This document shows positions 28,922 through 41,560 of a DNA stretch of 64,000 bases, piece after piece. The stretch is from Candidatus Thorarchaeota archaeon (lineage in GTDB: Archaea; Asgardarchaeota; Thorarchaeia; Thorarchaeales; Thorarchaeaceae). The notes under the pieces were generated by a model, which was not told the origin of the DNA, ran no database searches, and saw only the letters and a list, made by a program, of their open reading frames with translations. A program made the translations under genes and the position numbers. Every line of letters begins with the position of its first letter. Within the stretch, counting starts at the first letter, position 1. The stretch covers positions 1 through 64,000 of the forward strand of contig JBHLQH010000014.1 of the NCBI GenBank assembly GCA_048884965.1, in the 5' to 3' direction.

Positions 28922-31900
28922 TCATTTCAGGTCTAGTTTCTCGGGATGAGTATCGTCATAGGCACCATCAGCTGCTAGAAGTGCTTCAACATCTCTGATA
29001 AAACGCTCTTTCTCATCGAGATCTTGATCTGAGGTTTTATCTGACTTCTCAAGATTATCTTGGATTTCAGTATCCGAAATCGTGGATTCTGCTAAGGCCT
29101 CAGTATCTTCATCTAGCGCCAAGAACGAAGTCGTTTCTTTCTTTGATTCAGCCTCCTTAATCTGAACAATGTCATTCCGTTCGATTGCATCCATTATTAT
29201 TTTGTACACTCGTGTTTCTTCCAACCCACAGGCAGCGATTTTATTCGCCATTTCTTCTAGCTTGAATCCTTCAGTTGATTCAAGATCTGAGATTACGCGC
29301 TTCAAGCAGATTGGACCTCGAGGTAGGTTTCCAGCATCTACAATCCTGTGTCTATATTGAAGGAACATATCTAGCATCTCGTCAAACAGATTGTCAAACT
29401 GTGCTTCCTTTATACTATCAATCACAAGAAGGGGCACTTCTTCAAATTCACAATCGAAGGTTTCACCAACTGCTTTGGCAAATCGAATCATCCGTTCTTC
29501 CTGAGTTTTTGAGGGACTCCCGCTAGTGATGAATGCGCATACTAGATTGCGAGTTCGAATTGTCCTTATGATGTCTGAAACTGGTGTGATTTCCCATTCT
29601 CTTTGAGAAACATCAAATTCAGATCTGAATTGTGATATCGCAGTTATGAATGCAGAAATTAGGGAACCATCAAATCCTCCCTTCACCATACGTGAATATA
29701 TGGGAATGCCACTAGCTTTGTGAAGCACCACTATACCTAGTGTATTTCGTACATCATCAAATCTTCTCTTTATTGCAAGAGCCTGAATATTCTCTCTTCT
29801 CTTCTTACGTCTGTAAAATCTTCGCCCTACATATCCCATTGCAGCAATTCCACCAATCATAAGGAAGGGACTGAATCGTGTTACAGTTCTTGTTAGAGCT
29901 GCTAGTTCACTCATTGTAGGACTCAAATCAGTTTCAATATATTCTGAATCCGACTCAAGAAGATAGTTAGAGCAGTCAACATAAATTCGAATCCTTACAT
30001 CTGAATCCGCGGGAGGCATGATGTAAGTCGTAGAGTATACTCCTTGCGTATTTGATTCTTCTAAGATATCAGTTCCCAAAGGAACGAGATCCTGAAGTAT
30101 TTGATATGCTACTGTAGCTCCAGATATTGATTCACCTGTTTCACTATCTACTAGTCGCAGACTTAGAATATGTGAGGTGCCCTCTAAACCAGAGCGACCT
30201 TGAATATCTACAATCGATATCAATGCCTCTCTGACATAAAATACCAAGACTGTTTCCTGAGAAATGTACCCAATTTCACTGAAGACCAATGACACCTCAA
30301 ATGAGCCAACTCCATCAGTAGCAATAGATAATGTATAGAAACCAGTTCCGCTCCTAGTCACCATGGCACTTGCAGCTGCAGATCCCGACAGAGTTACGAC
30401 TGCATCTTCTATTCTTGTTCCATTATTCATTGAATATGTGTATGTGAAATTATAGGCTCTTCCAAAAACGAGTTCATCCATAAGTGTAATATCATTCAAG
30501 TTAGTATCAATCGGACCAACTTCAAGCTCAAGGGACAACCTGCTTGTTATATGATTAGTCTTATTGGCTGATATGATGATTTCCCAAATCCCTACTCTAT
30601 CTGCCACGAAGATTATGAGATATGTTTCGATCGACTGAGTTAGAGTATATACTATTCCTTCTCTTGGGTTTGTATACACCTCGAAAGATGCAGAACTAAC
30701 ATTGCTTCCAATATCTGTTCTAACATAGGCTATTGCAAGCTGATGCTTGCTTCCAAAAAGAATTGATTCGTGTGCTTCTCCTTCAATGATTCGGAGTTCA
30801 GTAGGAACGATCTGGACAAGCAGTGAAAACGCAGTCGTTGATTTCTGATAGTTCGTAAGATTCGCTTGAATGGATATTTGGAAGGAAGTAGTATCAGTCA
30901 CTGAGGGAAGCATTGTCATATTATAGAATCCGTTTCCAACTTCAGAAACAAGATACGTCAGTCCCGCTGGAGGATTCACAATTTGAATTGTAGCACCAGT
31001 AATAGGATCTCCATAGTCCTCATTATATCTGAGCTGCAATGTGAAATTCTGATCCAATGAAATGGTTGCATCATTCATGTGACCAGTCAATCTTGTTTCA
31101 ATTGGTACTACAACAAGGGAAAATGAAAGATACTGGGCAACATGATTAGTTATGTTAGCTCGAAGGACAATTGAAAATGTAGTTGCTATCGTTGGAGTGA
31201 ACACAATGGAGTAATACCCTTCACCAAAATCAAGAGTCGTTCCAATACTGATACCTGTTTGAGGTGATATCTCCGCCACCTGAATAGTTGCGCCAGCTAC
31301 ACCTGCTCCTGTGATATTACTATACCTCATCAGAATTGCATAGTCATCTCCATATCCTACCAAATCAGCGGTACTATTCAGGCAGGAGAAAGTAGTTCCG
31401 ATTGGGTTCACTTCAACTTCTAGTTGAACAAGAGCCGTAATAAAACTGGATTTGGTTGCAGTGAGTGTTATTTGCCAGATTCCCGCAGAATCGAATAGAA
31501 AGCAGAGTTGATACGCATCCCCTACGCATTGAAGAGTTGCGAATAGTCCAATTGAGGGTGCTGAGGAAATTGAAATATTGGCTGACGTGATGTTGGCAAC
31601 AACATCAGTTCTGATATATGCTAATGTTACAAGGTATGAATCAGTGATAGAAATGGAGTCGGATGAATGTCCTTGAATCACTATTAGATCTGTTGGAATA
31701 ACCTGTACAAACAATGAGAATGCAACCGTCCCGTTTTGATAATTGGCTCGATTAGCTCTAAATGAAATTTGGAAGGAAGTTGCTTCGCTCACAGATGGTA
31801 TGAGATTTATGCTGTAAATTCCGCCTCCGACCTCAATAGCTTCGAACGATAGACCCTGAGGTAGATCCACAACTGAGATACTCGCAAATGAAATACCGCT

Positions 31901-34726
31901 TAGAGTATCATCTTGGTATGTCAGCTGAATAGTACAGTTTTGGTCTATTGCTATAGTGGCTCCATTGCTATCAGACCTCAGAGATGTGGAGATCTGAGTA
32001 ACGAGAAGACTGAAGGTGAAGTACTTCGTAGCATGATTTGTAAGATTTGCCTTTATCACTAGTGTATAGGTTCCTACTGTCGCCGGAGTAAGGTCAAATG
32101 AATAATACCCATTTCCTTCATCTGTCGAAATCCCTGGAATCAATCCAGAGGGATTGACCTCTACTACTTGCACAGTTGCACCTAGTAGGCCCGCACCCGT
32201 ACTATTTGAGTATTGAACGACAAGGTGAAATGTGCGCCCATATGGGATTAGATTCGCAGTTTCGTTAAGTCCTTCAAATGTTGTTCCAATTTCTCCCACA
32301 ATCAAGTTGAATGACACAGATCGCTCTTCATGGAATTTCTTGGAAGCTGTTACAGTTACCTTGTACTCATGAGAAAGAACACCTGTTATCTCAACAGTAT
32401 AATGTCCATTACCAAGATCAGAGTGATATCCTTCAATCAGACCGAGAACAGGTCCTGAATATGTGACTGTAATATTGGCATCTTCTATTCCGACTCCTAT
32501 GATTTGCTCGTAATCAATATCAATCAGATATACGTCATTCAAGCCTACCTCGACAGGACTGCCATCCACATTGGATAATTGAAGTTCTGTAGCATAAGTC
32601 GATATAACCTCGAATTGGCATGTAATGTTGTTATAATAAGGTCTAGTTACATTTACGGTAACATGATACCATCCCGCTCCAAAAAGGGATGTATCAAAAT
32701 CTGCTTCCCACCAATTCTTTGCAAAGTTTGGAGTAAAGTCAATAGAACATCCTGACCAGTTAGCTATTACAGATATGCTATCGTCAAGAAGATAATTTCC
32801 ATTATCAGAATCCTGGTACGTTATCAGATTGGAAATTGTCAGTCCCCACTCAATTTCTATTGATGGGAATGATACGGTCGCAAACGCTTGATGATACATA
32901 GCGAATGTAGTAACTCCATATGCGATTTCTGTACCATTAGTCCAGAGAAACTGAACTTCCCACTCCCCCGCTGTTGTATTCAAGCCACTCAGAGTTCTCT
33001 CACTCGTATTTACAATTCCATCTATTCCCCCATGAATAATTTCCTCAGACCAAATAGAACCATCCGGCATCACCCATGCAACTTGCACATCATCTGTAAG
33101 CGTCGGTATGGTTTCTTGGGTTCCGATTTCTAGATGTGAACGAGTTCTGTTTCCACTTCTGAAGATATCTGTATCGTGCCAATGACCTGATTGACCGTCA
33201 AACACTTGTGTTGCTAGTCTTCTTGCATAGTTTATTGATTGAAAATCGACCTCCCACCAGCCAAGTCTATCAAGAATTGAAATGGGTATAGATACGAATG
33301 TTGGTTGAATAGAACAGGTACTAGTGACATCATTTGTAAAGGGATCATATATTGTGACATTATCCCAATCTGAGGGCATGTAGATGAAGACAGTGAAGTT
33401 TTCCAACGTCTCCGTCAAATCTCCTCCAATATAAGTGAATGTTGACAAATCTGAACTCTGTCCAGCATCAATCGTATACGCGACTCCCTTTTGTGTAGGA
33501 TGAGTTGTCCACGATGTGTTAGAAAAGAAATGCTGCAGGCTCCACACTTCGTATTCAAAAGAAACACTCACGGTTGAAGTTATACCGACAGACAATGAAT
33601 TTGAGTCCCAATAGTGATTTTCCAAACTTGCAGAATAGTACCCATTGCTTCCAGCTATCGGAGTATCTAGTGTCATTGCATGAAATTGTAGGCCTACTTC
33701 CTCTGGCGTTGGTGGAATATCGCTCAGCAATGAAACATCATCAATAGCCACTTCGAAGATACGTGCGTCCGCTCCATCAATACCTCCATCACCATCATAG
33801 TCACGACCGGGGTTTGTGTCAAAATACCATCCATTGTCTGCTTCTACTAGGAGTCCTATGCTTAATGAAAATTCAGAAGGAGCATTGATTATATTATGGA
33901 AAATAACATCATTCCAGTCATTTTTCTCTGGAGTATCTCTCATGAGATTTACAATATCATATCGCTCACTATATGCTCCGTTCTCAATATATGCGACTAG
34001 CCAGACATCACCGTAGATTGCAAAGTAGCCATTGTCGATTATTCCGCTTAAGTAATTGTACCTAAAAGATAACGTCATACTATCCGAATGCGGGTTGTTC
34101 TGTATTGTTTGGGTCCATAGGTTATACGTGTCGTCATAGTGATAGTACCTGATATACCCGGAGCTAGTATCCATTTCTCCTTGGCTCTCAACAGTTACAT
34201 ACCCCTCTGATTCATCGTATGATGTTATCAGATTCTGATCTCCATAACTTGAATCATACCAATCAACACCCCAGCCTTCTGGATGTGCTGTTATTGCTCC
34301 TGGGTAGATATTCTCACCACTACTACCTTCATCAAAAGTCCCATTCTCTGCGAACTCTCGATTCAGATTCCAAAGGGCAATTTTCGCATTGCTTGCCACC
34401 CAATTACTATCATTGTTTATCGGGATGCTTGTGAACGAATTTTCTCCTGTGTCCGTTCTACTCGATATCACTCCAGTGCTATAGTACCCTGATTGCTCAA
34501 CAATGATAGAATCCAAAACACCTTCTTTAGTCGATTGGGATAGAATCTCTCTCCTCTTTGGTTCACCATCATCTATGTTGCTGAAATCAGGATTGGTTTG
34601 CTTCTCATCACCACATGGATTTCGCGGATTATCCAAGGCTGAAGGATTGCTTGATATGGAGAATAGCATCAAGAAGATAATAGGCAGCATCAACAGATAT
34701 CTTCTAGTATACTTTCTTGGACACAT
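28922..34726 (-). CDS. Giant single-pass surface protein with Ig-like repeats and a cytoplasmic longin-like domain
   Basis: Signal peptide, many NxS/T sequons, ~97-aa beta repeats, TM FSPFLMIGGIAAMGYVG followed by RRFYRRKKRR, ~290-aa cytoplasmic tail. Confidence 0.88.
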   Translation of the reverse strand: MCPRKYTRRYLLMLPIIFLMLFSISSNPSALDNPRNPCGDEKQTNPDFSNIDDGEPKRREILSQSTKEGVLDSIIVEQSGYYSTGVISSRTDTGENSFTSIPINNDSNWVASNAKIALWNLNREFAENGTFDEGSSGENIYPGAITAHPEGWGVDWYDSSYGDQNLITSYDESEGYVTVESQGEMDTSSGYIRYYHYDDTYNLWTQTIQNNPHSDSMTLSFRYNYLSGIIDNGYFAIYGDVWLVAYIENGAYSERYDIVNLMRDTPEKNDWNDVIFHNIINAPSEFSLSIGLLVEADNGWYFDTNPGRDYDGDGGIDGADARIFEVAIDDVSLLSDIPPTPEEVGLQFHAMTLDTPIAGSNGYYSASLENHYWDSNSLSVGITSTVSVSFEYEVWSLQHFFSNTSWTTHPTQKGVAYTIDAGQSSDLSTFTYIGGDLTETLENFTVFIYMPSDWDNVTIYDPFTNDVTSTCSIQPTFVSIPISILDRLGWWEVDFQSINYARRLATQVFDGQSGHWHDTDIFRSGNRTRSHLEIGTQETIPTLTDDVQVAWVMPDGSIWSEEIIHGGIDGIVNTSERTLSGLNTTAGEWEVQFLWTNGTEIAYGVTTFAMYHQAFATVSFPSIEIEWGLTISNLITYQDSDNGNYLLDDSISVIANWSGCSIDFTPNFAKNWWEADFDTSLFGAGWYHVTVNVTRPYYNNITCQFEVISTYATELQLSNVDGSPVEVGLNDVYLIDIDYEQIIGVGIEDANITVTYSGPVLGLIEGYHSDLGNGHYTVEITGVLSHEYKVTVTASKKFHEERSVSFNLIVGEIGTTFEGLNETANLIPYGRTFHLVVQYSNSTGAGLLGATVQVVEVNPSGLIPGISTDEGNGYYSFDLTPATVGTYTLVIKANLTNHATKYFTFSLLVTQISTSLRSDSNGATIAIDQNCTIQLTYQDDTLSGISFASISVVDLPQGLSFEAIEVGGGIYSINLIPSVSEATSFQISFRANRANYQNGTVAFSLFVQVIPTDLIVIQGHSSDSISITDSYLVTLAYIRTDVVANITSANISISSAPSIGLFATLQCVGDAYQLCFLFDSAGIWQITLTATKSSFITALVQLEVEVNPIGTTFSCLNSTADLVGYGDDYAILMRYSNITGAGVAGATIQVAEISPQTGISIGTTLDFGEGYYSIVFTPTIATTFSIVLRANITNHVAQYLSFSLVVVPIETRLTGHMNDATISLDQNFTLQLRYNEDYGDPITGATIQIVNPPAGLTYLVSEVGNGFYNMTMLPSVTDTTSFQISIQANLTNYQKSTTAFSLLVQIVPTELRIIEGEAHESILFGSKHQLAIAYVRTDIGSNVSSASFEVYTNPREGIVYTLTQSIETYLIIFVADRVGIWEIIISANKTNHITSRLSLELEVGPIDTNLNDITLMDELVFGRAYNFTYTYSMNNGTRIEDAVVTLSGSAAASAMVTRSGTGFYTLSIATDGVGSFEVSLVFSEIGYISQETVLVFYVREALISIVDIQGRSGLEGTSHILSLRLVDSETGESISGATVAYQILQDLVPLGTDILEESNTQGVYSTTYIMPPADSDVRIRIYVDCSNYLLESDSEYIETDLSPTMSELAALTRTVTRFSPFLMIGGIAAMGYVGRRFYRRKKRRENIQALAIKRRFDDVRNTLGIVVLHKASGIPIYSRMVKGGFDGSLISAFITAISQFRSEFDVSQREWEITPVSDIIRTIRTRNLVCAFITSGSPSKTQEERMIRFAKAVGETFDCEFEEVPLLVIDSIKEAQFDNLFDEMLDMFLQYRHRIVDAGNLPRGPICLKRVISDLESTEGFKLEEMANKIAACGLEETRVYKIIMDAIERNDIVQIKEAESKKETTSFLALDEDTEALAESTISDTEIQDNLEKSDKTSDQDLDEKERFIRDVEALLAADGAYDDTHPEKLDLK
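30511..32290 (-). repeat. Internal duplication of a three-domain (~296 aa) Ig-like block
   Basis: IGTTFEGLNETANL... vs IGTTFSCLNSTADL...; ATIAIDQNCTIQLTY vs ATISLDQNFTLQLRY; IPTDLIVIQG vs VPTELRIIEG. Confidence 0.8.
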
Positions 34727-35060: not shown

Positions 35061-35558
35061 TTGATCAGTAGGAAGGATGCAATCGGGGTTATTGTAGCTC
35101 TATTAGTACTCTCATCTTCCATTAGTATCAATCTTCTAACCATTGACCAAGGAATCAATGTTCCCTTTACACTCATCCTTGAAAAATACATTCACTCCAT
35201 GCAAGATGCCCGGACGTTAGTTATCACGGATAATGAAACATGGTCCTCATTATGGTCCGAGATCTATCATGTGAATGGTCCCCCACCGAAGATCCTGTAT
35301 GTGAACTTCACCTGTGAATGGTTGATAGTCGTATGCCTTGGGACACGTCCAATGGGCGGGTATACCCTAAACATTACAAGTATCTCACGGACTCTCCTTA
35401 GCTACAAGGTATTCTATACGGAAACTGGGGGAGGTGCTGGTATAGCTATGGAAATCTATCCCCTGCAGATAGTTAAGATTTCGGAATTTCCTGCTGACCT
35501 GCCAGTTTCCTTCTATTACTCGTATTCAGAATCTCCCGTTCTATCTGAGTTATCCTGA
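35061..35558 (+). CDS. Secreted/anchored PrcB C-terminal domain-like protein
   Basis: N-terminal hydrophobic helix; VNF...IVVCLGTRPMGGYTLNITSI...YPLQIVKI. Confidence 0.75.
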   Translation: MISRKDAIGVIVALLVLSSSISINLLTIDQGINVPFTLILEKYIHSMQDARTLVITDNETWSSLWSEIYHVNGPPPKILYVNFTCEWLIVVCLGTRPMGGYTLNITSISRTLLSYKVFYTETGGGAGIAMEIYPLQIVKISEFPADLPVSFYYSYSESPVLSELS

Positions 35559-35581: not shown

Positions 35582-36286
35582 TCATAGAGATGTGCCACAC
35601 TTTTTGCATCGCGCTGTGCCAACTGCGTTCAAATAGCCACACTTGCGGCACTTTCCTGATATGAAATCCTGCATTAATTTTGTCGCAGACCCACGGATAT
35701 TGAGGATAATCTTATCTGAGAGGCCGAGTCTCTTCTTCGCCTTCGAATCAATCCGGTCACAATATGCAACAAGTGCTCTCAGTTTTGGTTTGACACGCTC
35801 CTCTCCCTTCGATATGCGTTCTCGTTCATCAGTATTGAGATAAGCTTCTTGCTGCACAAGTTCTTGATAGAATGATTGGATATTATTGAGTGTAGAAAAC
35901 ATCTCTACTAGCATTTCTCCCATATCCTTTGACTCTGGATTCCTTGATGCAAGCGGAATCCTACTTATCTGTTTATCAAGGCTAGCCAGCTCCTTCACTA
36001 CCTGCTTTGCGACGTTACCTGTTTCCGACCCCCCTCCCCGCCTATAGGTACTAGATGTTTGATCTGCTCCAGACGGAAGACGTCTTCCAGTCACTCCATC
36101 TCCAAAACGAATCCTCGAAGAGCCATCATCATCTCGTTGTACTCCATATGCTTTATCGTCTTTCATTGACTGGACTTTAGATCTTGAGAGACCACGTGTC
36201 GTTGAGCTCCCACAATAAGGGCAATCGTTCTCGTTCTCCGGCACCTCTGCGCCACAACTTCCACATTTCGCCAACATTAGCACCAT
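35582..36286 (-). CDS. Double zinc-ribbon protein with baseplate-like internal segments
   Basis: Terminal CGSC...CPYC and CRKC...CKKC ribbons; internal IRFGDGVTGRRLPSG...YRRGGG...GNV. Confidence 0.85.
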   Translation of the reverse strand: MVLMLAKCGSCGAEVPENENDCPYCGSSTTRGLSRSKVQSMKDDKAYGVQRDDDGSSRIRFGDGVTGRRLPSGADQTSSTYRRGGGSETGNVAKQVVKELASLDKQISRIPLASRNPESKDMGEMLVEMFSTLNNIQSFYQELVQQEAYLNTDERERISKGEERVKPKLRALVAYCDRIDSKAKKRLGLSDKIILNIRGSATKLMQDFISGKCRKCGYLNAVGTARCKKCGTSL

Positions 36287-36404
36287 TCCATGTATTCTTC
36301 TTCATATAGTCAGGTTCCTCCTGCTATTAATTTCTCTGGCAATAATGTGAAGTGGGTCAAAGCCCAGAGGCAGTACGAATACCTGAATCGTCAAGGAGGT
36401 AACC

Positions 36405-36668: not shown

Positions 36669-38654
36669 ATGTCAGACTTCAAACTAGAGGCTCCTTTCAA
36701 ACCGACAGGCGATCAACCACAGGCGATCAAGAAGCTAATCGAAGGTCTTGAGAGCGGATTGGACCATCAGACACTTTTGGGAGTCACTGGTTCTGGAAAG
36801 ACATTCTCCATGGCGAACGTCGTGGAAGCATACAACAAGCCTACCCTTGTCATCTCTCATAACAAGACACTTGCAGCTCAACTAGCCTCAGAGTACAAGC
36901 AGTTCTTTCCCAATAATGCTGTAGAGTACTTCGTTTCCTACTATGATTATTATCAACCAGAAGCATATGTTCCGAGCAAGGATATGTACATCGAGAAGGA
37001 GGCTGACATCAATGCGGAAATTGAGCGTCTTCGACATTCGACCACGAACTCCTTGCGCTCACGAAACGATGTTCTTGTGGTGGCCTCGGTTTCATGCATC
37101 TATGGTATTGGAGATCCGGAAGCATACGACCATTTCAGGATGTACTTGGAAGTAGGGATGGAGATTGACAGACGAGAGATTCTCGAGCGACTCGTTTCGA
37201 TGCAATATGAGCGCAATGACATGGAGATTAAGCCCGGTGTATTTCGTGTGCGCGGTGATGTCATTGATGTGTATCCGTCAGCTTCAGAGAATAGCATTCG
37301 CATCGAACTTGATGGTACCAAGATTGAGAAGATCTCGACATTAGAGGCATTGACTTCAAAGAGACTCTGGTATAGTAACTGGACAGAGCTCTTCCCTGCA
37401 CGACATCACGTCGCCAGATACGACACGATCCTTGAAGCATTAGAACCGATGAAACAGGAGATGGAAGAGCGAGTTGATTGGTTTAAGAGTCATGGAAAAT
37501 TGGTCGAGGCAGACCGACTGAAGAGGCGGACCATGTTCGATATGGAGATGCTTCGAGAAACTGGCCACTGTGGTGGAATTGAGAACTACTCGCGATTGAT
37601 TGATGGACGCTCACCTGGGCAGAAGCCCTATACACTTCTTGATTACTTCCCTGATGATTTCTTGATGATAATTGATGAGAGCCATATGACCATACCTCAG
37701 GTACGAGGGATGTATCATGGTGACTTGGCTCGGAAGAACAATCTTGTCGATTATGGGTTCCGACTACCCTCCGCACTTGATAATCGACCACTGAAGTTCG
37801 ATGAGTTCGAGCGGTACATGAAGCGGACCATCTACACAAGTGCAACTCCAGGGAGCTATGAACGAAAGAACAGCAAACAGATTGTTGAGCAGCTCCTGAG
37901 ACCTACAGGTCTACTAGATCCTCACATCACCCTCAAGCCAGTCATCAATCAAGTTGACAATCTGATTGCAGAGATTCGCGTTACTGTCGGACAAGGGCAC
38001 CGAGTACTCGTAACGACCCTCACGAAGAAGACCTCAGAGATGCTAACTGAGTATCTTGTCGAGAATGGAGTGAAGGCACGATATCTCCACTCCGATATTG
38101 GCACGGTAGAACGGATCGAGATCATTAGACAGCTACGGCAAGGTAAGTTCAATGTCCTTGTTGGCATCAACCTGCTTCGAGAGGGATTGGACCTGCCAGA
38201 AGTCGGACTCGTTGCGATCATGGATGCGGATAAGGAAGGCTTTCTCAGAACTGATTGGGCTCTCATCCAGACTATGGGCAGAGCGGCAAGAAACGCGGAT
38301 GGTAGAGTCATTCTCTATGCTGATCACACATCCGATGCGATGCAGACTGCTATCGACGAAACAAATCGAAGAAGAGCGTATCAAAGAAAATACAACGAGG
38401 AGCATGGCATAGTTCCTACCTCAATCACGAAGCATGTTCATGACATCGCCATAGGTATCAAGTCGAAGGAGTCTGTCAAGCAAGCAACCATTGAGGAATT
38501 CGACCCACTTGAGGCTGAAGAGATCATGGACTTCATCGTTGATCTGGAAGAGAAGATGAAGGAGGCAGCAAGCAATCTTGAATTCGAAAAGGCTGCGAAG
38601 CTTCGGGACCAGATTGTTATGTTACGAAAGAAGATCGAGGGCAGTATAGCATGA
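36669..38654 (+). CDS. uvrB: Excinuclease ABC subunit B
   Basis: GVTGSGKT, YYDYYQPEAY beta-hairpin, DESH, C-terminal UVR domain. Confidence 0.99.
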   Translation: MSDFKLEAPFKPTGDQPQAIKKLIEGLESGLDHQTLLGVTGSGKTFSMANVVEAYNKPTLVISHNKTLAAQLASEYKQFFPNNAVEYFVSYYDYYQPEAYVPSKDMYIEKEADINAEIERLRHSTTNSLRSRNDVLVVASVSCIYGIGDPEAYDHFRMYLEVGMEIDRREILERLVSMQYERNDMEIKPGVFRVRGDVIDVYPSASENSIRIELDGTKIEKISTLEALTSKRLWYSNWTELFPARHHVARYDTILEALEPMKQEMEERVDWFKSHGKLVEADRLKRRTMFDMEMLRETGHCGGIENYSRLIDGRSPGQKPYTLLDYFPDDFLMIIDESHMTIPQVRGMYHGDLARKNNLVDYGFRLPSALDNRPLKFDEFERYMKRTIYTSATPGSYERKNSKQIVEQLLRPTGLLDPHITLKPVINQVDNLIAEIRVTVGQGHRVLVTTLTKKTSEMLTEYLVENGVKARYLHSDIGTVERIEIIRQLRQGKFNVLVGINLLREGLDLPEVGLVAIMDADKEGFLRTDWALIQTMGRAARNADGRVILYADHTSDAMQTAIDETNRRRAYQRKYNEEHGIVPTSITKHVHDIAIGIKSKESVKQATIEEFDPLEAEEIMDFIVDLEEKMKEAASNLEFEKAAKLRDQIVMLRKKIEGSIA

Positions 38655-41560
38655 AGGCAGCGAAAACAACAAACCCAGATATGGACACCGAAGGTCCGAA
38701 GTCTATAGTGGTAGTCGGAGCTGCTGAGCATAACCTCCGGAATATCAGCGTTGAGATTCCGAAGAATAGCCTGACCGTTGTCACAGGTGTTTCAGGGAGT
38801 GGAAAGTCAAGCTTGGTCTTTGATACGATCTTCGCTGAAGGCCAGCGAAGGTTCGTTGAGAGTCTCTCTGCTTACGCTCGTCAGTTCCTCGGTATGCTCG
38901 AGAAACCAAAGGTAGACTTCATGTCAGGTCTCTCACCATCTATCTCTATTGACCAGAAGAGCGTCGGTCGTAATCCTCGTTCGACAGTAGGTACGATAAC
39001 AGAGATCTATGACTTTTTGCGTCTTCTCTATGCGCGTATTGGTGAGCCACACTGTCCTTCCTGCGGAAAGAAGATCGAACCTCAGACAGCTCAACAGATC
39101 GTTGATAGAGTCCTACAGTTGGATGAGACTACAAAGATTATGATCATGGCTCCCATCGTTCGTGGGCGAAAGGGAGAGTACCGGAAGGAGTTCCGGGACC
39201 TGCTTAAGAAGGGCTTCGTAAGAGCGCGAGTTGATGGCGAGCTCATCGATATCGTGGAAGGTATGTCCCTCGATCGGTATTTCGAGCACACCATTGAGGT
39301 CGTTATCGATCGACTCAATGTAAAGGATTCAGAGCGAGGAAGGATCTCAGAGGCTGTAGAAGCTGCGTTAGATATGGCTGAAGGTGTTGTCACCATCTCC
39401 ACGGATGAAAGGAACCTCACACTCTCAGAGCAGTTCGCTTGTGTGGATTGTGGAATAAGCTTGCCTGAGATGGAACCACGTATCTTCTCTTGGAACACTC
39501 CTCAAGGTGCATGTGAGAACTGCACGGGGATTGGCACGATTCGAGAGTTTGATCCTGACCTCTTCATCAGAGACCCAAAGCTCTCTATTCGTGAAGGTCT
39601 TTTTCTAACTGAGGAATGGAGGACAAAACGGTTCGTCGATGGCCGCTATGACAAGATACTGAAGAAATATGGTTTGACCGTCGACACGCCATGGAATGAG
39701 ATGACAGAGAAGCAGAAGAACATCTTGCTCTGGGGCTCAGGGAAGGAACTCTTCGAGTTCACCTGGGAAGGTGAGAATGAAGAGGTCTCTGCTCAATGGA
39801 AGGGAACGTTCAAGAGACCCTTTGAGGGGTGGGCGGAGCGTTCTACTCGACTCTACCGTCAGACAAAATCCGAGTGGCGAAGGAAAGAGATCGAGAAATT
39901 CATGTCTCAGCAAAAGTGTCCTGTCTGCAACGGTAGTAGGCTTCGAAAGGAAGCGCAGGCTGTTACTTTCAATGGTCGATCAATTTCTGATCTAGATGAT
40001 ATGTCCATCAAGGAAATGCATGAGTTCTTTGGCTCAGTGAAGATCGACCCTCGACTCGATCCGGTCGCACAACCTATCCTCAGAGAGATTCAGGGACGTA
40101 TCGAGTTTCTTGAGGAAGTAGGTCTCGAGTACCTTACTCTCAGCAGGACTGCTCCTACGCTTGCTGGTGGTGAAGCTCAGCGAATCCGCTTGGCAAGTCA
40201 GATAGGTTCGAACTTGGTAGGCGTCACCTATGTCTGCGACGAACCTTCGATTGGCTTACACGCTCGTGACAATATGCGATTGTTGAGGTCTCTCATGCGA
40301 CTTCGAGATGTTGGGAATACAGTACTGGTGGTGGAGCATGACGAAGAGACCATGATGCATGCTGACTACATTGTTGATCTTGGCCCAGGCGCAGGATCGG
40401 AAGGCGGTGAGGTTGTAGTCGCTGGTACTCTCGAAGAGATTCTCAAGTCGAAGAAGTCGTTGACTGCGAAGTACCTTCGTGGAGAAGAACGAATACCTGT
40501 CCCCGGGCAACGACGGAAGCCCAACGGTCGATTCCTTGAGATAAAGGGAGCCCGTCATCATAACTTGAAGAATTTGGATGTCAAGATTCCACTAGGATTA
40601 TTCATCTCCGTCACAGGTGTATCAGGGAGCGGTAAGTCAAGTCTAATCGTTGAGACGCTGCAACGAGCTCTGGCTCGGAAGTTCCATAATGCTGAGGCGA
40701 CTCCTGGCAAGCACGATAGCATCGAGGGCGTTGAGCAGCTCGATAAGGTAATCGTCATCGATCAGAGTCCCATTGGAAGAACACCTCGCTCAAATCCCGC
40801 GACCTATGTAGGTCTCTGGTCGCCCCTGAGGGATCTCTTCGCATCCCTCCCTGAATCTCAGGTCCGTGGTTACAAGCCAGGTAGGTTCAGCTTCAATGTT
40901 AAGGGTGGACGCTGTGAGAAGTGTCAAGGTGCTGGTGTTGAAATTATTGAGATGCAGTTTCTTCCTCCAGTACAGGTGACATGCAGTGACTGTAAAGGGC
41001 GTCGATACAACCGAGAGACCCTCCAGGTGCGCTATAAGGGAAAGAACATCGCAGACGTCCTATCCATGCGAATTGATGAGGCTACCATATTCTTTGAGAA
41101 CGTTCCGTCTGTCTACAACCGATTGAAGACACTATGTGATGTTGGCATGGGTTATGTACAGCTTGGACAACCTGCGACTACCTTGAGCGGTGGCGAAGCT
41201 CAACGAATCAAGCTAAGCAAATTCCTTTCTCGTCCTGCCACTGGCCAGACGTTGATACTCTTGGATGAACCGACCACTGGACTCCATTTCGCAGATATCA
41301 AGAAGCTGCTTGAGGTACTACACCGCCTCGTAGATCTCGGGAATACTGTGCTAGTCATCGAGCATCAATTGGATGTTGTGAAGACTGCGGATTGGGTGAT
41401 TGATCTCGGTCCCGAAGGCGGGAATGAAGGAGGTTATCTTGTTGCAGAAGGAACTCCTGAGGATATCGCAAATGCTCCTGAGTCATATACCGGGAAATAC
41501 CTGAAAGATCTCCTCGAAATGAAGGTTCCACTCAGTGTTCAGAGGAGGTCCACGAAATGA
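38651..41560 (+). CDS. uvrA: Excinuclease ABC subunit A (paralog 1)
   Basis: Two GVSGSGKS Walker A motifs, LAGGEAQR/LSGGEAQR, Zn fingers, IGRTPRSNPATY. Confidence 0.98.
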   Translation: MKAAKTTNPDMDTEGPKSIVVVGAAEHNLRNISVEIPKNSLTVVTGVSGSGKSSLVFDTIFAEGQRRFVESLSAYARQFLGMLEKPKVDFMSGLSPSISIDQKSVGRNPRSTVGTITEIYDFLRLLYARIGEPHCPSCGKKIEPQTAQQIVDRVLQLDETTKIMIMAPIVRGRKGEYRKEFRDLLKKGFVRARVDGELIDIVEGMSLDRYFEHTIEVVIDRLNVKDSERGRISEAVEAALDMAEGVVTISTDERNLTLSEQFACVDCGISLPEMEPRIFSWNTPQGACENCTGIGTIREFDPDLFIRDPKLSIREGLFLTEEWRTKRFVDGRYDKILKKYGLTVDTPWNEMTEKQKNILLWGSGKELFEFTWEGENEEVSAQWKGTFKRPFEGWAERSTRLYRQTKSEWRRKEIEKFMSQQKCPVCNGSRLRKEAQAVTFNGRSISDLDDMSIKEMHEFFGSVKIDPRLDPVAQPILREIQGRIEFLEEVGLEYLTLSRTAPTLAGGEAQRIRLASQIGSNLVGVTYVCDEPSIGLHARDNMRLLRSLMRLRDVGNTVLVVEHDEETMMHADYIVDLGPGAGSEGGEVVVAGTLEEILKSKKSLTAKYLRGEERIPVPGQRRKPNGRFLEIKGARHHNLKNLDVKIPLGLFISVTGVSGSGKSSLIVETLQRALARKFHNAEATPGKHDSIEGVEQLDKVIVIDQSPIGRTPRSNPATYVGLWSPLRDLFASLPESQVRGYKPGRFSFNVKGGRCEKCQGAGVEIIEMQFLPPVQVTCSDCKGRRYNRETLQVRYKGKNIADVLSMRIDEATIFFENVPSVYNRLKTLCDVGMGYVQLGQPATTLSGGEAQRIKLSKFLSRPATGQTLILLDEPTTGLHFADIKKLLEVLHRLVDLGNTVLVIEHQLDVVKTADWVIDLGPEGGNEGGYLVAEGTPEDIANAPESYTGKYLKDLLEMKVPLSVQRRSTK

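What the first reader, a model, noticed from the sequence alone, without database searches (positions are those of the whole stretch)
35582..36286. Zinc-ribbon protein containing two permuted fragments of a contractile-tail baseplate protein
Between two zinc ribbons lie YGVQRDDDGSSRIRFGDGVTGRRLPSG...STYRRGGGSETGNV and DMGEMLVEMFSTLNNIQSFYQELVQQEAYLNT. From memory these match two hallmark motifs of baseplate wedge proteins of phage tails and extracellular contractile injection systems (T4 gp6/Afp11-like): the internal FGDG..G..P.G...Y..GGG..GN motif, and the N-terminal D.G..L.E.F......SFYQ.....EA.L.T motif. Here their order is reversed, the protein is only 234 aa, and I see no sheath, tube or spike genes in the window. 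Inference: a domesticated, rearranged baseplate derivative, possibly an assembly decoy against tailed viruses/CIS or a repurposed scaffold.
Basis: partly seen in the sequence, partly recalled or inferred. Interest (0 to 1): 0.72.

Follow-up and report, generated by a model that had tools for sequence, protein, structure and literature searches.

The report
Orphan baseplate-core zinc-ribbon protein
An Asgard archaeon carries a small, conserved, stand-alone protein in which two zinc ribbons flank two reordered pieces of a phage-tail/injection-system baseplate wedge protein; it looks like a domesticated assembly module, and its new job is unknown.

Summary
Window 35582-36286 (-) encodes a 234-aa protein with a C4 zinc ribbon at each end.

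- **Baseplate match.** Residues ~41-93 match the internal FGDG...YRxGxG element of Cis11/Afp11/T4-gp6-type wedge proteins (hhalign 99.5%, E 3e-22). Residues ~115-180 match their N-terminal core-bundle helices (98%, E 1e-13). Cross-controls score about 0.1-0.2%.
- **Order.** All 77 full-size proteins checked have helices first, then FGDG. Here the order is reversed, and the wing and ring-forming C-terminal domains are absent.
- **Curated model.** TIGR02243 hits at E 6e-10 but 38 bits, against a cut-off of 155.8.
- **Real family.** The same architecture occurs in 9 related Asgard genomes at 34-43% identity, with dN/dS 0.23-0.26.
- **Variants.** There is a short form (ribbon-FGDG-ribbon, ~115 aa) and an expanded form (407-432 aa).
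- **No co-occurrence.** The other 85 genomes of the family lack tube, gp25 and Cis12.

I read it as an exapted wedge-core interaction module. A decoy role is unexcluded and untested.

The scan noted this same stretch once more, in a second reading of the same genome, and not on other DNA.

The parts
35582..36286 (-). Whole ORF, 234 aa plus stop (P0001). The probable true start is the second ATG (M4, 36275-36277), giving 231 aa
   Evidence: Homologues begin 3-4 residues before the first Cys. dN/dS is 0.23-0.26 in orthologue pairs.
36302..36309 (-). TATA-like CTATATGA, about 26-29 nt upstream of the M4 ATG; a possible archaeal promoter for a near-leaderless transcript (inference)
   Evidence: Sequence read. 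Not tested.
36206..36271 (-). N-terminal C4 zinc ribbon (residues 6-27; CxxC-x10-CxxC)
   Evidence: Pfam PF13240 at 7-27 and DZR PF12773. The Cys are invariant in the family.
36008..36166 (-). F module (residues ~41-93): Y.V.RDDDG...RFGDG..G.R.PSG....YRRGGG..GN. It is homologous to the internal FGDG/YRxGxG element of Cis11/gp6-type wedge proteins (T4 gp6 F238-G241 region)
   Evidence: hhalign prob 99.5%, E 3.4e-22. BLASTP. TIGR02243 positions 404-477. PHROG 219. gp6 mapping. The AF2 monomer has pLDDT <50 here.
35945..36007 (-). Linker helix (residues ~94-114), family-specific
   Evidence: AF2 helix 88-108 with pLDDT about 88.
35747..35944 (-). H module (residues ~115-180): D.G..L.E.F......SFYQ.....EAYL.T..R.R.S. 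It is homologous to the N-terminal core-bundle helices of wedge proteins (baseplate residues ~47-117; T4 gp6 ~56-100)
   Evidence: hhalign prob 98%, E 1.4e-13. BLASTP. AF2 helices 120-145 and 152-178 with pLDDT about 90. gp6 mapping.
35657..35746 (-). Two further helices (residues 181-210), basic (pI 10.6), with no baseplate counterpart detected. They are predicted to complete an intramolecular helical bundle
35585..35656 (-). C-terminal C4 zinc ribbon (residues 211-234), L40e-like, basic
   Evidence: L40e E 0.013; PRK04136 E 2e-5. The Cys are invariant.

Best explanation
This is a real gene for a small, soluble double-zinc-ribbon protein of an Asgard (Lokiarchaeota-labelled) archaeon. Its core is an exapted 'wedge core' of a contractile-tail baseplate protein (Cis11/Afp11/T4 gp6 type, TIGR02243). 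Two elements are kept. One is the FGDG...YRxGxG beta element, which in full-size proteins lies after the inserted wing and just before the ring-forming C-terminal domain. The other is the N-terminal helices that in wedges build the six-helix core bundle. They are joined directly, in reversed order. The wing and the dimerisation/Baseplate_J domains are gone, and a C4 zinc ribbon caps each end. The protein is not a component of a contractile machine: it is a stand-alone gene, and most genomes that carry the family have no tube, gp25, Cis12 or full-size Cis11. Shown: the homology of both segments, the reversed order, the loss of the other domains, conservation under purifying selection, and independence from an endogenous CIS. 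Inferred mechanism: the helical half folds on its own into a four- to five-helix bundle, with family-specific helices taking the place of partner chains. The FGDG element is unstructured alone and is ordered only by pairing with a partner. The protein therefore acts as a small adaptor that binds a partner through former wedge-assembly surfaces, while the basic C-terminal ribbon contacts a second ligand. The partner is unknown. It could be a host protein or a wedge subunit of a foreign contractile tail.
For: Homology of both segments, with negative cross-controls; BLASTP; TIGR02243 E 6e-10; 1504 database hits, mostly full-size baseplate proteins matched in two stretches. Native order in 77/77 full-size proteins. 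A baseplate profile maps the helices to T4 gp6 ~56-100 and the FGDG element to ~223-290. The literature places a wing domain between core bundle and trifurcation unit in gp6-like proteins (PMC10996793) and describes a six-helix core bundle (PMC9942802). Family: the same architecture in 9 other genomes of one GTDB family at 34-43% identity, with invariant Cys and motif residues. dN/dS is 0.23 and 0.26, against 0.09-0.19 for neighbours. Independence from CIS: gp19 tube in 0/85, gp25 in 0/85, the Cis12 N-terminus in 0/85 apart from one marginal match (E 0.0096) in a 56-aa frame with two stop codons, and full-size Cis11 in 0/85 of the other family genomes. At phylum level, minis (19 genomes) and full-size TIGR02243 proteins (8 genomes) overlap only in G000. 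No conserved neighbours across genera. Fold: helices 88-210 have pLDDT about 85-93 and residues 30-88 are <50. There is no TM segment and the C-terminus is basic.
Against: No partner is identified and no binding is shown. The assignment of the FGDG element to, or next to, the trifurcation unit rests on sequence position and published descriptions, not on coordinates that I could inspect. The structure model is only moderate (mean pLDDT 70.6, 11-sequence alignment), so 'disordered until bound' may simply reflect a shallow alignment. Structural searches of the helical half return only generic bundles: FlgN Z 10.7, and a pyocin R2 baseplate chain Z 9.2, which is within noise for helical proteins. 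No expression data could be obtained.
Confidence: 0.6

Rival explanations
1. Dominant-negative decoy. The protein binds wedge subunits (gp6/gp7- or Cis11/Cis12-type) of invading contractile-tailed viruses or foreign CIS through the retained core-bundle and FGDG surfaces. Because it lacks the ring-closing domain, it caps the wedge and blocks baseplate assembly.
For: It retains exactly the elements that build the inter-subunit wedge core and has lost everything else (PMC10996793). Its distribution is patchy and accessory-like: within the family, 9 long, 5 short-only and 1 expanded form among 85 genomes. It is nearly exclusive with endogenous full-size baseplates. It evolves faster than its neighbours and shows 5 nonsynonymous / 0 synonymous differences among near-identical strains. 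Its architectures are diversified. Precedents exist for defence by blocking tail assembly (Tab, PMC10884400) and for blocking a T6SS wedge with a mimic peptide (PMC8406304, title and abstract only).
Against: There is no PADLOC hit and no defence-island or mobile-element context. It was not found on IMG/VR viral contigs. dN/dS of about 0.25 shows no arms-race signal. In G000 it coexists with the host's own eCIS, which it would then have to spare. No target virus is known.
Confidence: 0.2
2. An accessory, regulator or assembly chaperone of the organism's own eCIS (contig C12), encoded away from the operon.
For: G000 has a complete eCIS with two Cis11 paralogues (823 and 901 aa). The mini-protein's FGDG segment is 51% identical to the 901-aa paralogue. 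The Cis12-like protein of that locus also carries a zinc-ribbon insert.
Against: Of 86 genomes in the family only G000 has the eCIS, yet 15 others carry a long, short or expanded form. Identity to the host's own Cis11 is no higher than to bacterial baseplate proteins, at 51-53%. The eCIS island has an atypical tetranucleotide signature, which suggests recent acquisition.
Confidence: 0.1
3. A non-functional remnant, a chimeric misassembly, or an over-called ORF.
For: Public gene calling truncated it to 194 aa (P0002). One relative (G363) is frameshifted or full of stops, and one (G318) is split.
Against: The full architecture is conserved in independent assemblies at 34-43% identity, with invariant Cys and motif residues, and dN/dS is about 0.25. 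The contig composition is typical of the genome, with tetranucleotide r = 0.99.
Confidence: 0.03

Closest known systems
Cis11/Afp11/Pvc11/Alg11 and T4 gp6-type baseplate wedge proteins (NCBIfam TIGR02243 'putative baseplate assembly protein'; Baseplate_J superfamily; PDB 5hx2/5iv5 gp6, 6rao Afp11, 7aeb Alg11, 9gtp)
   Same: It shares two homologous segments with conserved signature residues: D.G..L.E....YQ....EA.L.T and FGDG..G..P.G....YR.G.G.
   Different: It is 234 aa rather than 600-1200 aa. The segments are in reversed order. It has no wing domain and no C-terminal dimerisation/Baseplate_J domain. Zinc ribbons sit at both ends. It is a stand-alone gene outside any tail locus. Its score is far below the family cut-off.
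Small double zinc-ribbon proteins of archaea and bacteria (Pfam DZR PF12773 / Zn_Ribbon_1 PF13240)
   Same: It has two terminal CxxC-x10-CxxC ribbons, is small and soluble, and scores above both Pfam cut-offs.
   Different: The about 180 residues between the ribbons are baseplate-derived, which is not a described DZR architecture.
Tab, the prophage-encoded tail assembly blocker (PMC10884400)
   Same: It is only a functional analogy for the decoy reading: a small protein that stops tail assembly of an invading virus.
   Different: There is no sequence relationship. Tab targets the tape-measure pathway and is prophage-encoded with an anti-Tab partner. Here no activity is shown.
Bacterial stand-alone mini-proteins with the same two modules in native order (P0057 cluster, P0139, P0148, P0174; 181-197 aa)
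   Same: They have the helix module plus the FGDG module without the wing or the C-terminal domain, and they sit outside tail loci.
   Different: They have the native order, no zinc ribbons, and a GC-rich bacterial origin (63% GC). They probably arose by independent miniaturisation.

Membership tests
TIGR02243 / Cis11-gp6-type baseplate wedge protein | Full-length match above the curated cut-off (155.8 bits) | tested here: not met
   38.3 bits, E 6.1e-10, partial match in two stretches. For comparison, P0004 scores 208.5 bits.
TIGR02243 / Cis11-gp6-type baseplate wedge protein | N-terminal core-bundle helices (D.G..L.E...YQ...EA.L.T) | tested here: met
   hhalign prob 98%, E 1.4e-13, residues 115-180.
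TIGR02243 / Cis11-gp6-type baseplate wedge protein | Internal FGDG...YRxGxG element | tested here: met
   hhalign prob 99.5%, E 3.4e-22, residues 41-96.
TIGR02243 / Cis11-gp6-type baseplate wedge protein | Native order: helices, then wing, then FGDG, then C-terminal domain | tested here: not met
   FGDG precedes the helices. 77/77 full-size proteins have the native order.
TIGR02243 / Cis11-gp6-type baseplate wedge protein | C-terminal Baseplate_J/dimerisation domain that closes the iris ring | tested here: not met
   No residues are available for it. There is no PF04865 hit. The profile region ~570-800 is unmatched.
TIGR02243 / Cis11-gp6-type baseplate wedge protein | Encoded in a tail/CIS gene cluster with sheath, tube, gp25 and gpI/Cis12 | tested here: not met
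   The neighbours are a surface protein, a PrcB_C-like ORF and uvrB/uvrA. Relatives have unrelated neighbours.
Double zinc ribbon proteins (PF13240 / PF12773) | Two C4 ribbons scoring above the Pfam gathering thresholds | tested here: met
   PF13240 scores 36.6 against 25; PF12773 scores 27.6 against 27.3.
Known anti-phage defence families (PADLOC-DB) | Profile match to a catalogued defence protein | tested here: not met
   No family at E<=0.01 for the long, short or expanded forms. The library dates from 2023, so this does not exclude a new defence.
Wedge 'triplex' core (three-chain assembly) | Self- or hetero-association of three chains through core bundle and trifurcation unit | tested here: inconclusive
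   A three-copy complex prediction returned no verdict. Hetero-complexes were not tested.

The most novel reading that the evidence does not exclude
Asgard archaea have domesticated the inter-subunit core of a contractile-tail wedge protein into a family of zinc-ribbon 'wedge mimics' (long, short and expanded forms). These would act as dominant-negative inhibitors of baseplate assembly of invading myovirus-like viruses or foreign injection systems. That would be a structural-mimicry defence built from the attacker's own part.
Probability: 0.2. Interest if true: 0.85.

Novelty: new variant of a known kind. Interest (0 to 1): 0.6.

Why it matters
Baseplate wedge proteins are known only as parts of phage tails, tailocins, eCIS and T6SS. 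Here their conserved assembly core lives on by itself. It is reordered and capped by zinc ribbons, and it is conserved under selection in archaea that mostly lack any contractile machine. That is a clear case of exaptation of a virus/CIS structural module in the archaeal lineage closest to eukaryotes. It also defines the minimal conserved unit of the wedge (helices plus the FGDG element), and it gives a concrete, testable candidate for assembly interference by molecular mimicry. If the module binds wedge subunits, it could also serve as a tool to block CIS or tail assembly.

Tried and rejected
**Complex prediction.** Three copies of the protein with the family alignment scored 0.00, 'no answer'. 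This is not evidence either way.

**Fold searches of the monomer model.**
- Foldseek against PDB found nothing at E<=1e-3.
- VIA-align wide returned only generic helical bundles: FlgN Z 10.7, and pyocin R2 baseplate chain 6u5b_h Z 9.2, below the noise level for helical proteins.

**Second AF2 model.** The bacterial native-order mini (A5) gave mean pLDDT 46, which is unusable, so it was not searched.

**ESM Atlas.** It returned only unrelated zinc-ribbon clusters, scores <0.8, TM <0.4.

**PDB sequence search with the family profile.** It returned only L40e-like and other zinc ribbons.

**IMG/VR viral contigs.** No relative was found.

**T4 baseplate paper (doi 10.1038/nature17971).** It is not held, so gp6 domain boundaries come from other papers plus my alignment.

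**Rejected origin idea.** I considered that the reversed order arose by an in-frame deletion across the tandem Cis11a-Cis11b genes of this genome's own locus. That predicts an FGDG segment closest to the upstream paralogue. Instead it is closest to the downstream 901-aa one: 51% identity, against 35% over 31 aa. So there is no support from this locus, and the segments are too short for a reliable tree.

**Rejected partner idea.** I considered conserved operon partners. Only genus-level synteny exists.

Full report
**1. The observation**

Pfam sees only zinc ribbons, at residues 7-27 and near 213-233 (PF13240, 36.6 bits against a cut-off of 25; DZR, 27.6 against 27.3). PHROGs gave a first weak hint of 'baseplate wedge subunit' for residues 38-88 (E 0.0023).

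A word-indexed search restricted to longer proteins found about 40 proteins of 800-1000 aa, several named 'putative baseplate assembly protein'. They match at E down to 9e-8 against 5.8 billion sequences.

Pairwise BLASTP shows the geometry. Residues 44-88 align to residues 538-582 of an 819-aa protein (51% identity, E 1e-12). Residues 100-197 align to its residues 46-144 (E 5e-6). The two motifs are therefore real, and their order is reversed.

**2. Statistics and controls**

I cut the mini-protein family alignment into an 'F' part (residues 36-96) and an 'H' part (97-210). I compared each with profiles of the baseplate N-terminus and of the baseplate FGDG region, built from 60 full-size proteins.

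| Comparison | Probability | E-value |
|---|---|---|
| F vs FGDG region | 99.5% | 3.4e-22 |
| H vs N-terminus | 98% | 1.4e-13 |
| F vs N-terminus (control) | 0.1-0.2% | 0.36 |
| H vs FGDG region (control) | 0.1-0.2% | 0.52 |

- The curated NCBIfam model TIGR02243 hits the protein at E 6.1e-10 in two stretches, but with 38 bits against a cut-off of 155.8.
- The exhaustive HMMER search of 1.84 billion representatives returned 1504 hits at E<=1e-3, and most of them are 800+ aa proteins matched in two stretches.

**3. What the two pieces are in a wedge protein**

A profile of 30 full-size relatives (A3) hits several solved wedge proteins:
- a Baseplate J-like protein (9gtp)
- T4 gp6 (5hx2/5iv5)
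- AlgoCIS Alg11 (7aeb)
- diffocin Tri-2 (8v3w)
- Mu gp47 (9ki1)
- Afp11 (6rao)

In T4 gp6 the H segment corresponds to about residues 56-100. The F segment corresponds to about 223-290, where gp6 reads FGEG at 238-241.

[quoted passage not shown] In gp6-like proteins a wing domain is inserted between the two, and C-terminal dimerisation domains close the iris ring (PMC10996793; PMC8894135). In the minimal myophage Pam3 the core is a six-helix bundle (PMC9942802).

By position, H is the core-bundle helix pair. F lies after the wing, at or next to the trifurcation unit and just before the ring-forming domain. That last assignment is an inference from sequence position, because I could not inspect coordinates. 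The mini-protein has neither the wing nor the C-terminal domain.

**4. It is a gene family, not a one-off**

Proteins with the same architecture (ribbon, F, H, ribbon; 219-251 aa) exist at 34-43% identity. All eight Cys and the motif residues are invariant: F61 G62 D63 G64 G67 R69 Y81 R82 G84 G123 E128 Y140 Q141. One of them is labelled Candidatus Lokiarchaeota at NCBI.

Among 400 genomes of the phylum, matches occur in 19, including this one:
- The long form is in G000 plus nine other genomes, all within one GTDB family, across four genera.
- A short form, in which a ribbon, F and a ribbon make about 115 aa (alignment A4), occurs in five further genomes of that family and in three genomes of two other families. 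It is also a second copy in two genomes that carry the long form.
- An expanded form of 407 aa in G322 has a ribbon, a 95-residue F that is 44% identical to this genome's own Cis11b (E 3e-23), a roughly 165-residue insert, H and a ribbon. A 432-aa metagenomic protein (P0062) is a similar expanded form.

Orthologue pairs give dN/dS of 0.23 and 0.26, against 0.09-0.19 for flanking genes. The gene is therefore under purifying selection, though it evolves somewhat faster than its neighbours.

**5. Relation to a contractile machine**

The genome (4.09 Mb, 99 contigs, 95.7% complete) nevertheless has a complete eCIS on contig C12:
- sheath, gp19 tube, Pvc16-type terminator, AAA+ ATPase and GPD hub
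- a DUF4280/PAAR-like tip and gp25
- two Cis11 paralogues (823 and 901 aa)
- a gpI/Cis12-like protein with its own zinc-ribbon insert
- a DUF6519 beta-helix protein
- two eCIS_core (DUF4157) proteins

The flanks of C12 fit the genome's tetranucleotide signature (r = 0.974; genome median 0.981). The island itself is at the low extreme (0.914), which suggests horizontal acquisition.

This eCIS does not explain the mini-protein. Among the 85 other genomes of the family:
- None has a gp19 tube.
- None has gp25.
- None has the Cis12 N-terminus, apart from one marginal match (E 0.0096) in a 56-aa frame with two stop codons in G321.
- The only matches to Cis11b are the mini-proteins themselves, the G322 expanded form, and a short weak F-region match (53 residues, E 4.5e-5) inside a 662-aa frame in G353 that I did not characterise.

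At phylum level, full-size TIGR02243-type proteins occur in seven other genomes. None of these carries a mini-protein.

Neighbouring genes are conserved only within genera. There is no tRNA, no integrase-type context and no PADLOC hit, and no relative on IMG/VR contigs.

**6. Fold**

AlphaFold2 with the 11-sequence family alignment gives mean pLDDT 70.6.
- Helices 88-108, 120-145, 152-178, 181-187 and 191-210 are confident, at about 85-93.
- Residues 30-88, which include the F element, are below 50.

The helical half thus looks like an autonomous four- to five-helix bundle in which family-specific helices may occupy the places that partner chains take in a wedge. The F element may need a partner to become ordered, or the alignment may simply be too shallow.

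Structure searches found only generic helical bundles. The protein has no hydrophobic segment, and its C-terminal helices and ribbon are basic.

**7. Interpretation**

I am confident (about 0.9) of the descriptive conclusion: this is a conserved, stand-alone, exapted wedge-core module, reordered and capped by zinc ribbons, in Asgard archaea.

How it acts is inferred. The most economical reading is a small adaptor that binds a partner through the former wedge-assembly surfaces. The partner is unknown.

The attractive specific version is a dominant-negative mimic that caps the wedges of foreign contractile tails because it lacks the ring-closing domain. In its favour:
- exactly the inter-subunit core elements are retained
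- the distribution is patchy
- the family is nearly exclusive with endogenous baseplates
- several variant architectures exist
- there are precedents for defence by blocking tail assembly (PMC10884400)

No context or activity data support it, however, and the protein coexists with an eCIS in this very genome. I put it at about 0.2. A role as an accessory of the host's own eCIS is disfavoured by the distribution (about 0.1). A remnant or artefact is excluded for the family (about 0.03).

**8. Details**

- The probable true start is the second ATG (M4, 36275-36277). Homologues start 3-4 residues before the first Cys, and a TATA-like CTATATGA lies at 36302-36309.
- The public gene call (P0002, 194 aa) starts at M41 and omits the N-terminal ribbon.

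Noticed in passing
G000 contig C12, about 9.3-38.2 kb (L016:9320-19607; L017:153-18224): A complete eCIS operon: sheath, gp19 tube, Pvc16 terminator, AAA+ ATPase, GPD hub, DUF4280 tip, gp25, two Cis11 paralogues (823 and 901 aa), a Cis12/gpI-like protein with a zinc-ribbon insert at residues 259-279, a DUF6519 beta-helix protein and two eCIS_core proteins. It is the only such locus among the 86 genomes of the taxonomic family, and its tetranucleotide signature is atypical (r = 0.914).
   Followed up: partly
Proteins P0055, P0056, P0059, P0069, P0073, P0081, P0085, P0086 (alignment A4); genomes G337, G350, G354, G355, G374, G108, G110, G280: A short paralogous family of about 111-123 aa made of a zinc ribbon, the FGDG/YRxGxG element and a zinc ribbon, with no helix module. 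It has a wider distribution in the phylum (three families) than the long form.
   Followed up: partly
L036:1291-2511 (+) (G322 contig C55); protein P0062: Expanded forms of 407 and 432 aa keep the permuted order of ribbon, F, H and ribbon but add an extra roughly 165-190-residue region. In G322 it lies between F and H; in P0062 it appears to lie before F (read by eye from the sequence). By eye the extra region looks like a beta-sandwich, but Pfam gives no hit. Their F and H modules are more baseplate-like (44% identity over 95 aa to Cis11b), so they may be intermediates.
   Followed up: partly
L041:5996-6544 (+) and the P0057 cluster; P0139, P0148, P0174: GC-rich bacterial stand-alone proteins of 181-197 aa carry the same two modules in native order, without the wing, the C-terminal domain or zinc ribbons. 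They sit beside GH25 and patatin genes, not in a tail locus. This is apparently an independent miniaturisation of the wedge core.
   Followed up: partly
L032:2524-5937 (G326), L033 (G329), L045:223-2547: In two genomes of the same genus the long form sits directly upstream of, and co-directional with, a DUF4430 / 261-aa / ECF-transporter operon. On a metagenomic contig a short form sits convergent at the other end of the orthologous operon (70-75% identity). The window copy is not next to this operon.
   Followed up: partly
L046:2030-2722, L047:1163-1855, L048:1248-1940: Among three near-identical strains the mini-gene shows 1-5 nonsynonymous and 0 synonymous differences in 693 bp. The two flanking genes (1521 bp together) show 0-1. 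The numbers are small, but this hints at relaxed or diversifying selection within populations.
   Followed up: no
G363:C36:16000-16677 (L034:8001-8484); G318:C116:872-1539: Two relatives look disrupted. The G363 copy reads through 8 stops or two frames, and the G318 copy is split into two frames. This could be decay or assembly error.
   Followed up: no
window 36669-41560 (+): uvrB and uvrA overlap by 4 bp and lie in a stretch of higher G+C (0.47-0.50, against 0.41-0.43 for the flanks). This would be consistent with a horizontally acquired bacterial-type UvrABC system.
   Followed up: no
window 28922-34726 (-) and 35061-35558 (+): The left neighbour is a 1934-aa protein with Ig/filamin/CarboxypepD_reg-like repeats and a C-terminal region after a TM-like segment. 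A 165-aa ORF with an N-terminal hydrophobic segment and a sub-threshold PrcB_C match converges on the mini-gene with a 23-nt gap.
   Followed up: no
window 35585-36166 (-) = P0002: The public gene call for this locus starts at M41 (194 aa) and so omits the conserved N-terminal zinc ribbon. This is a likely start-site mis-annotation.
   Followed up: yes
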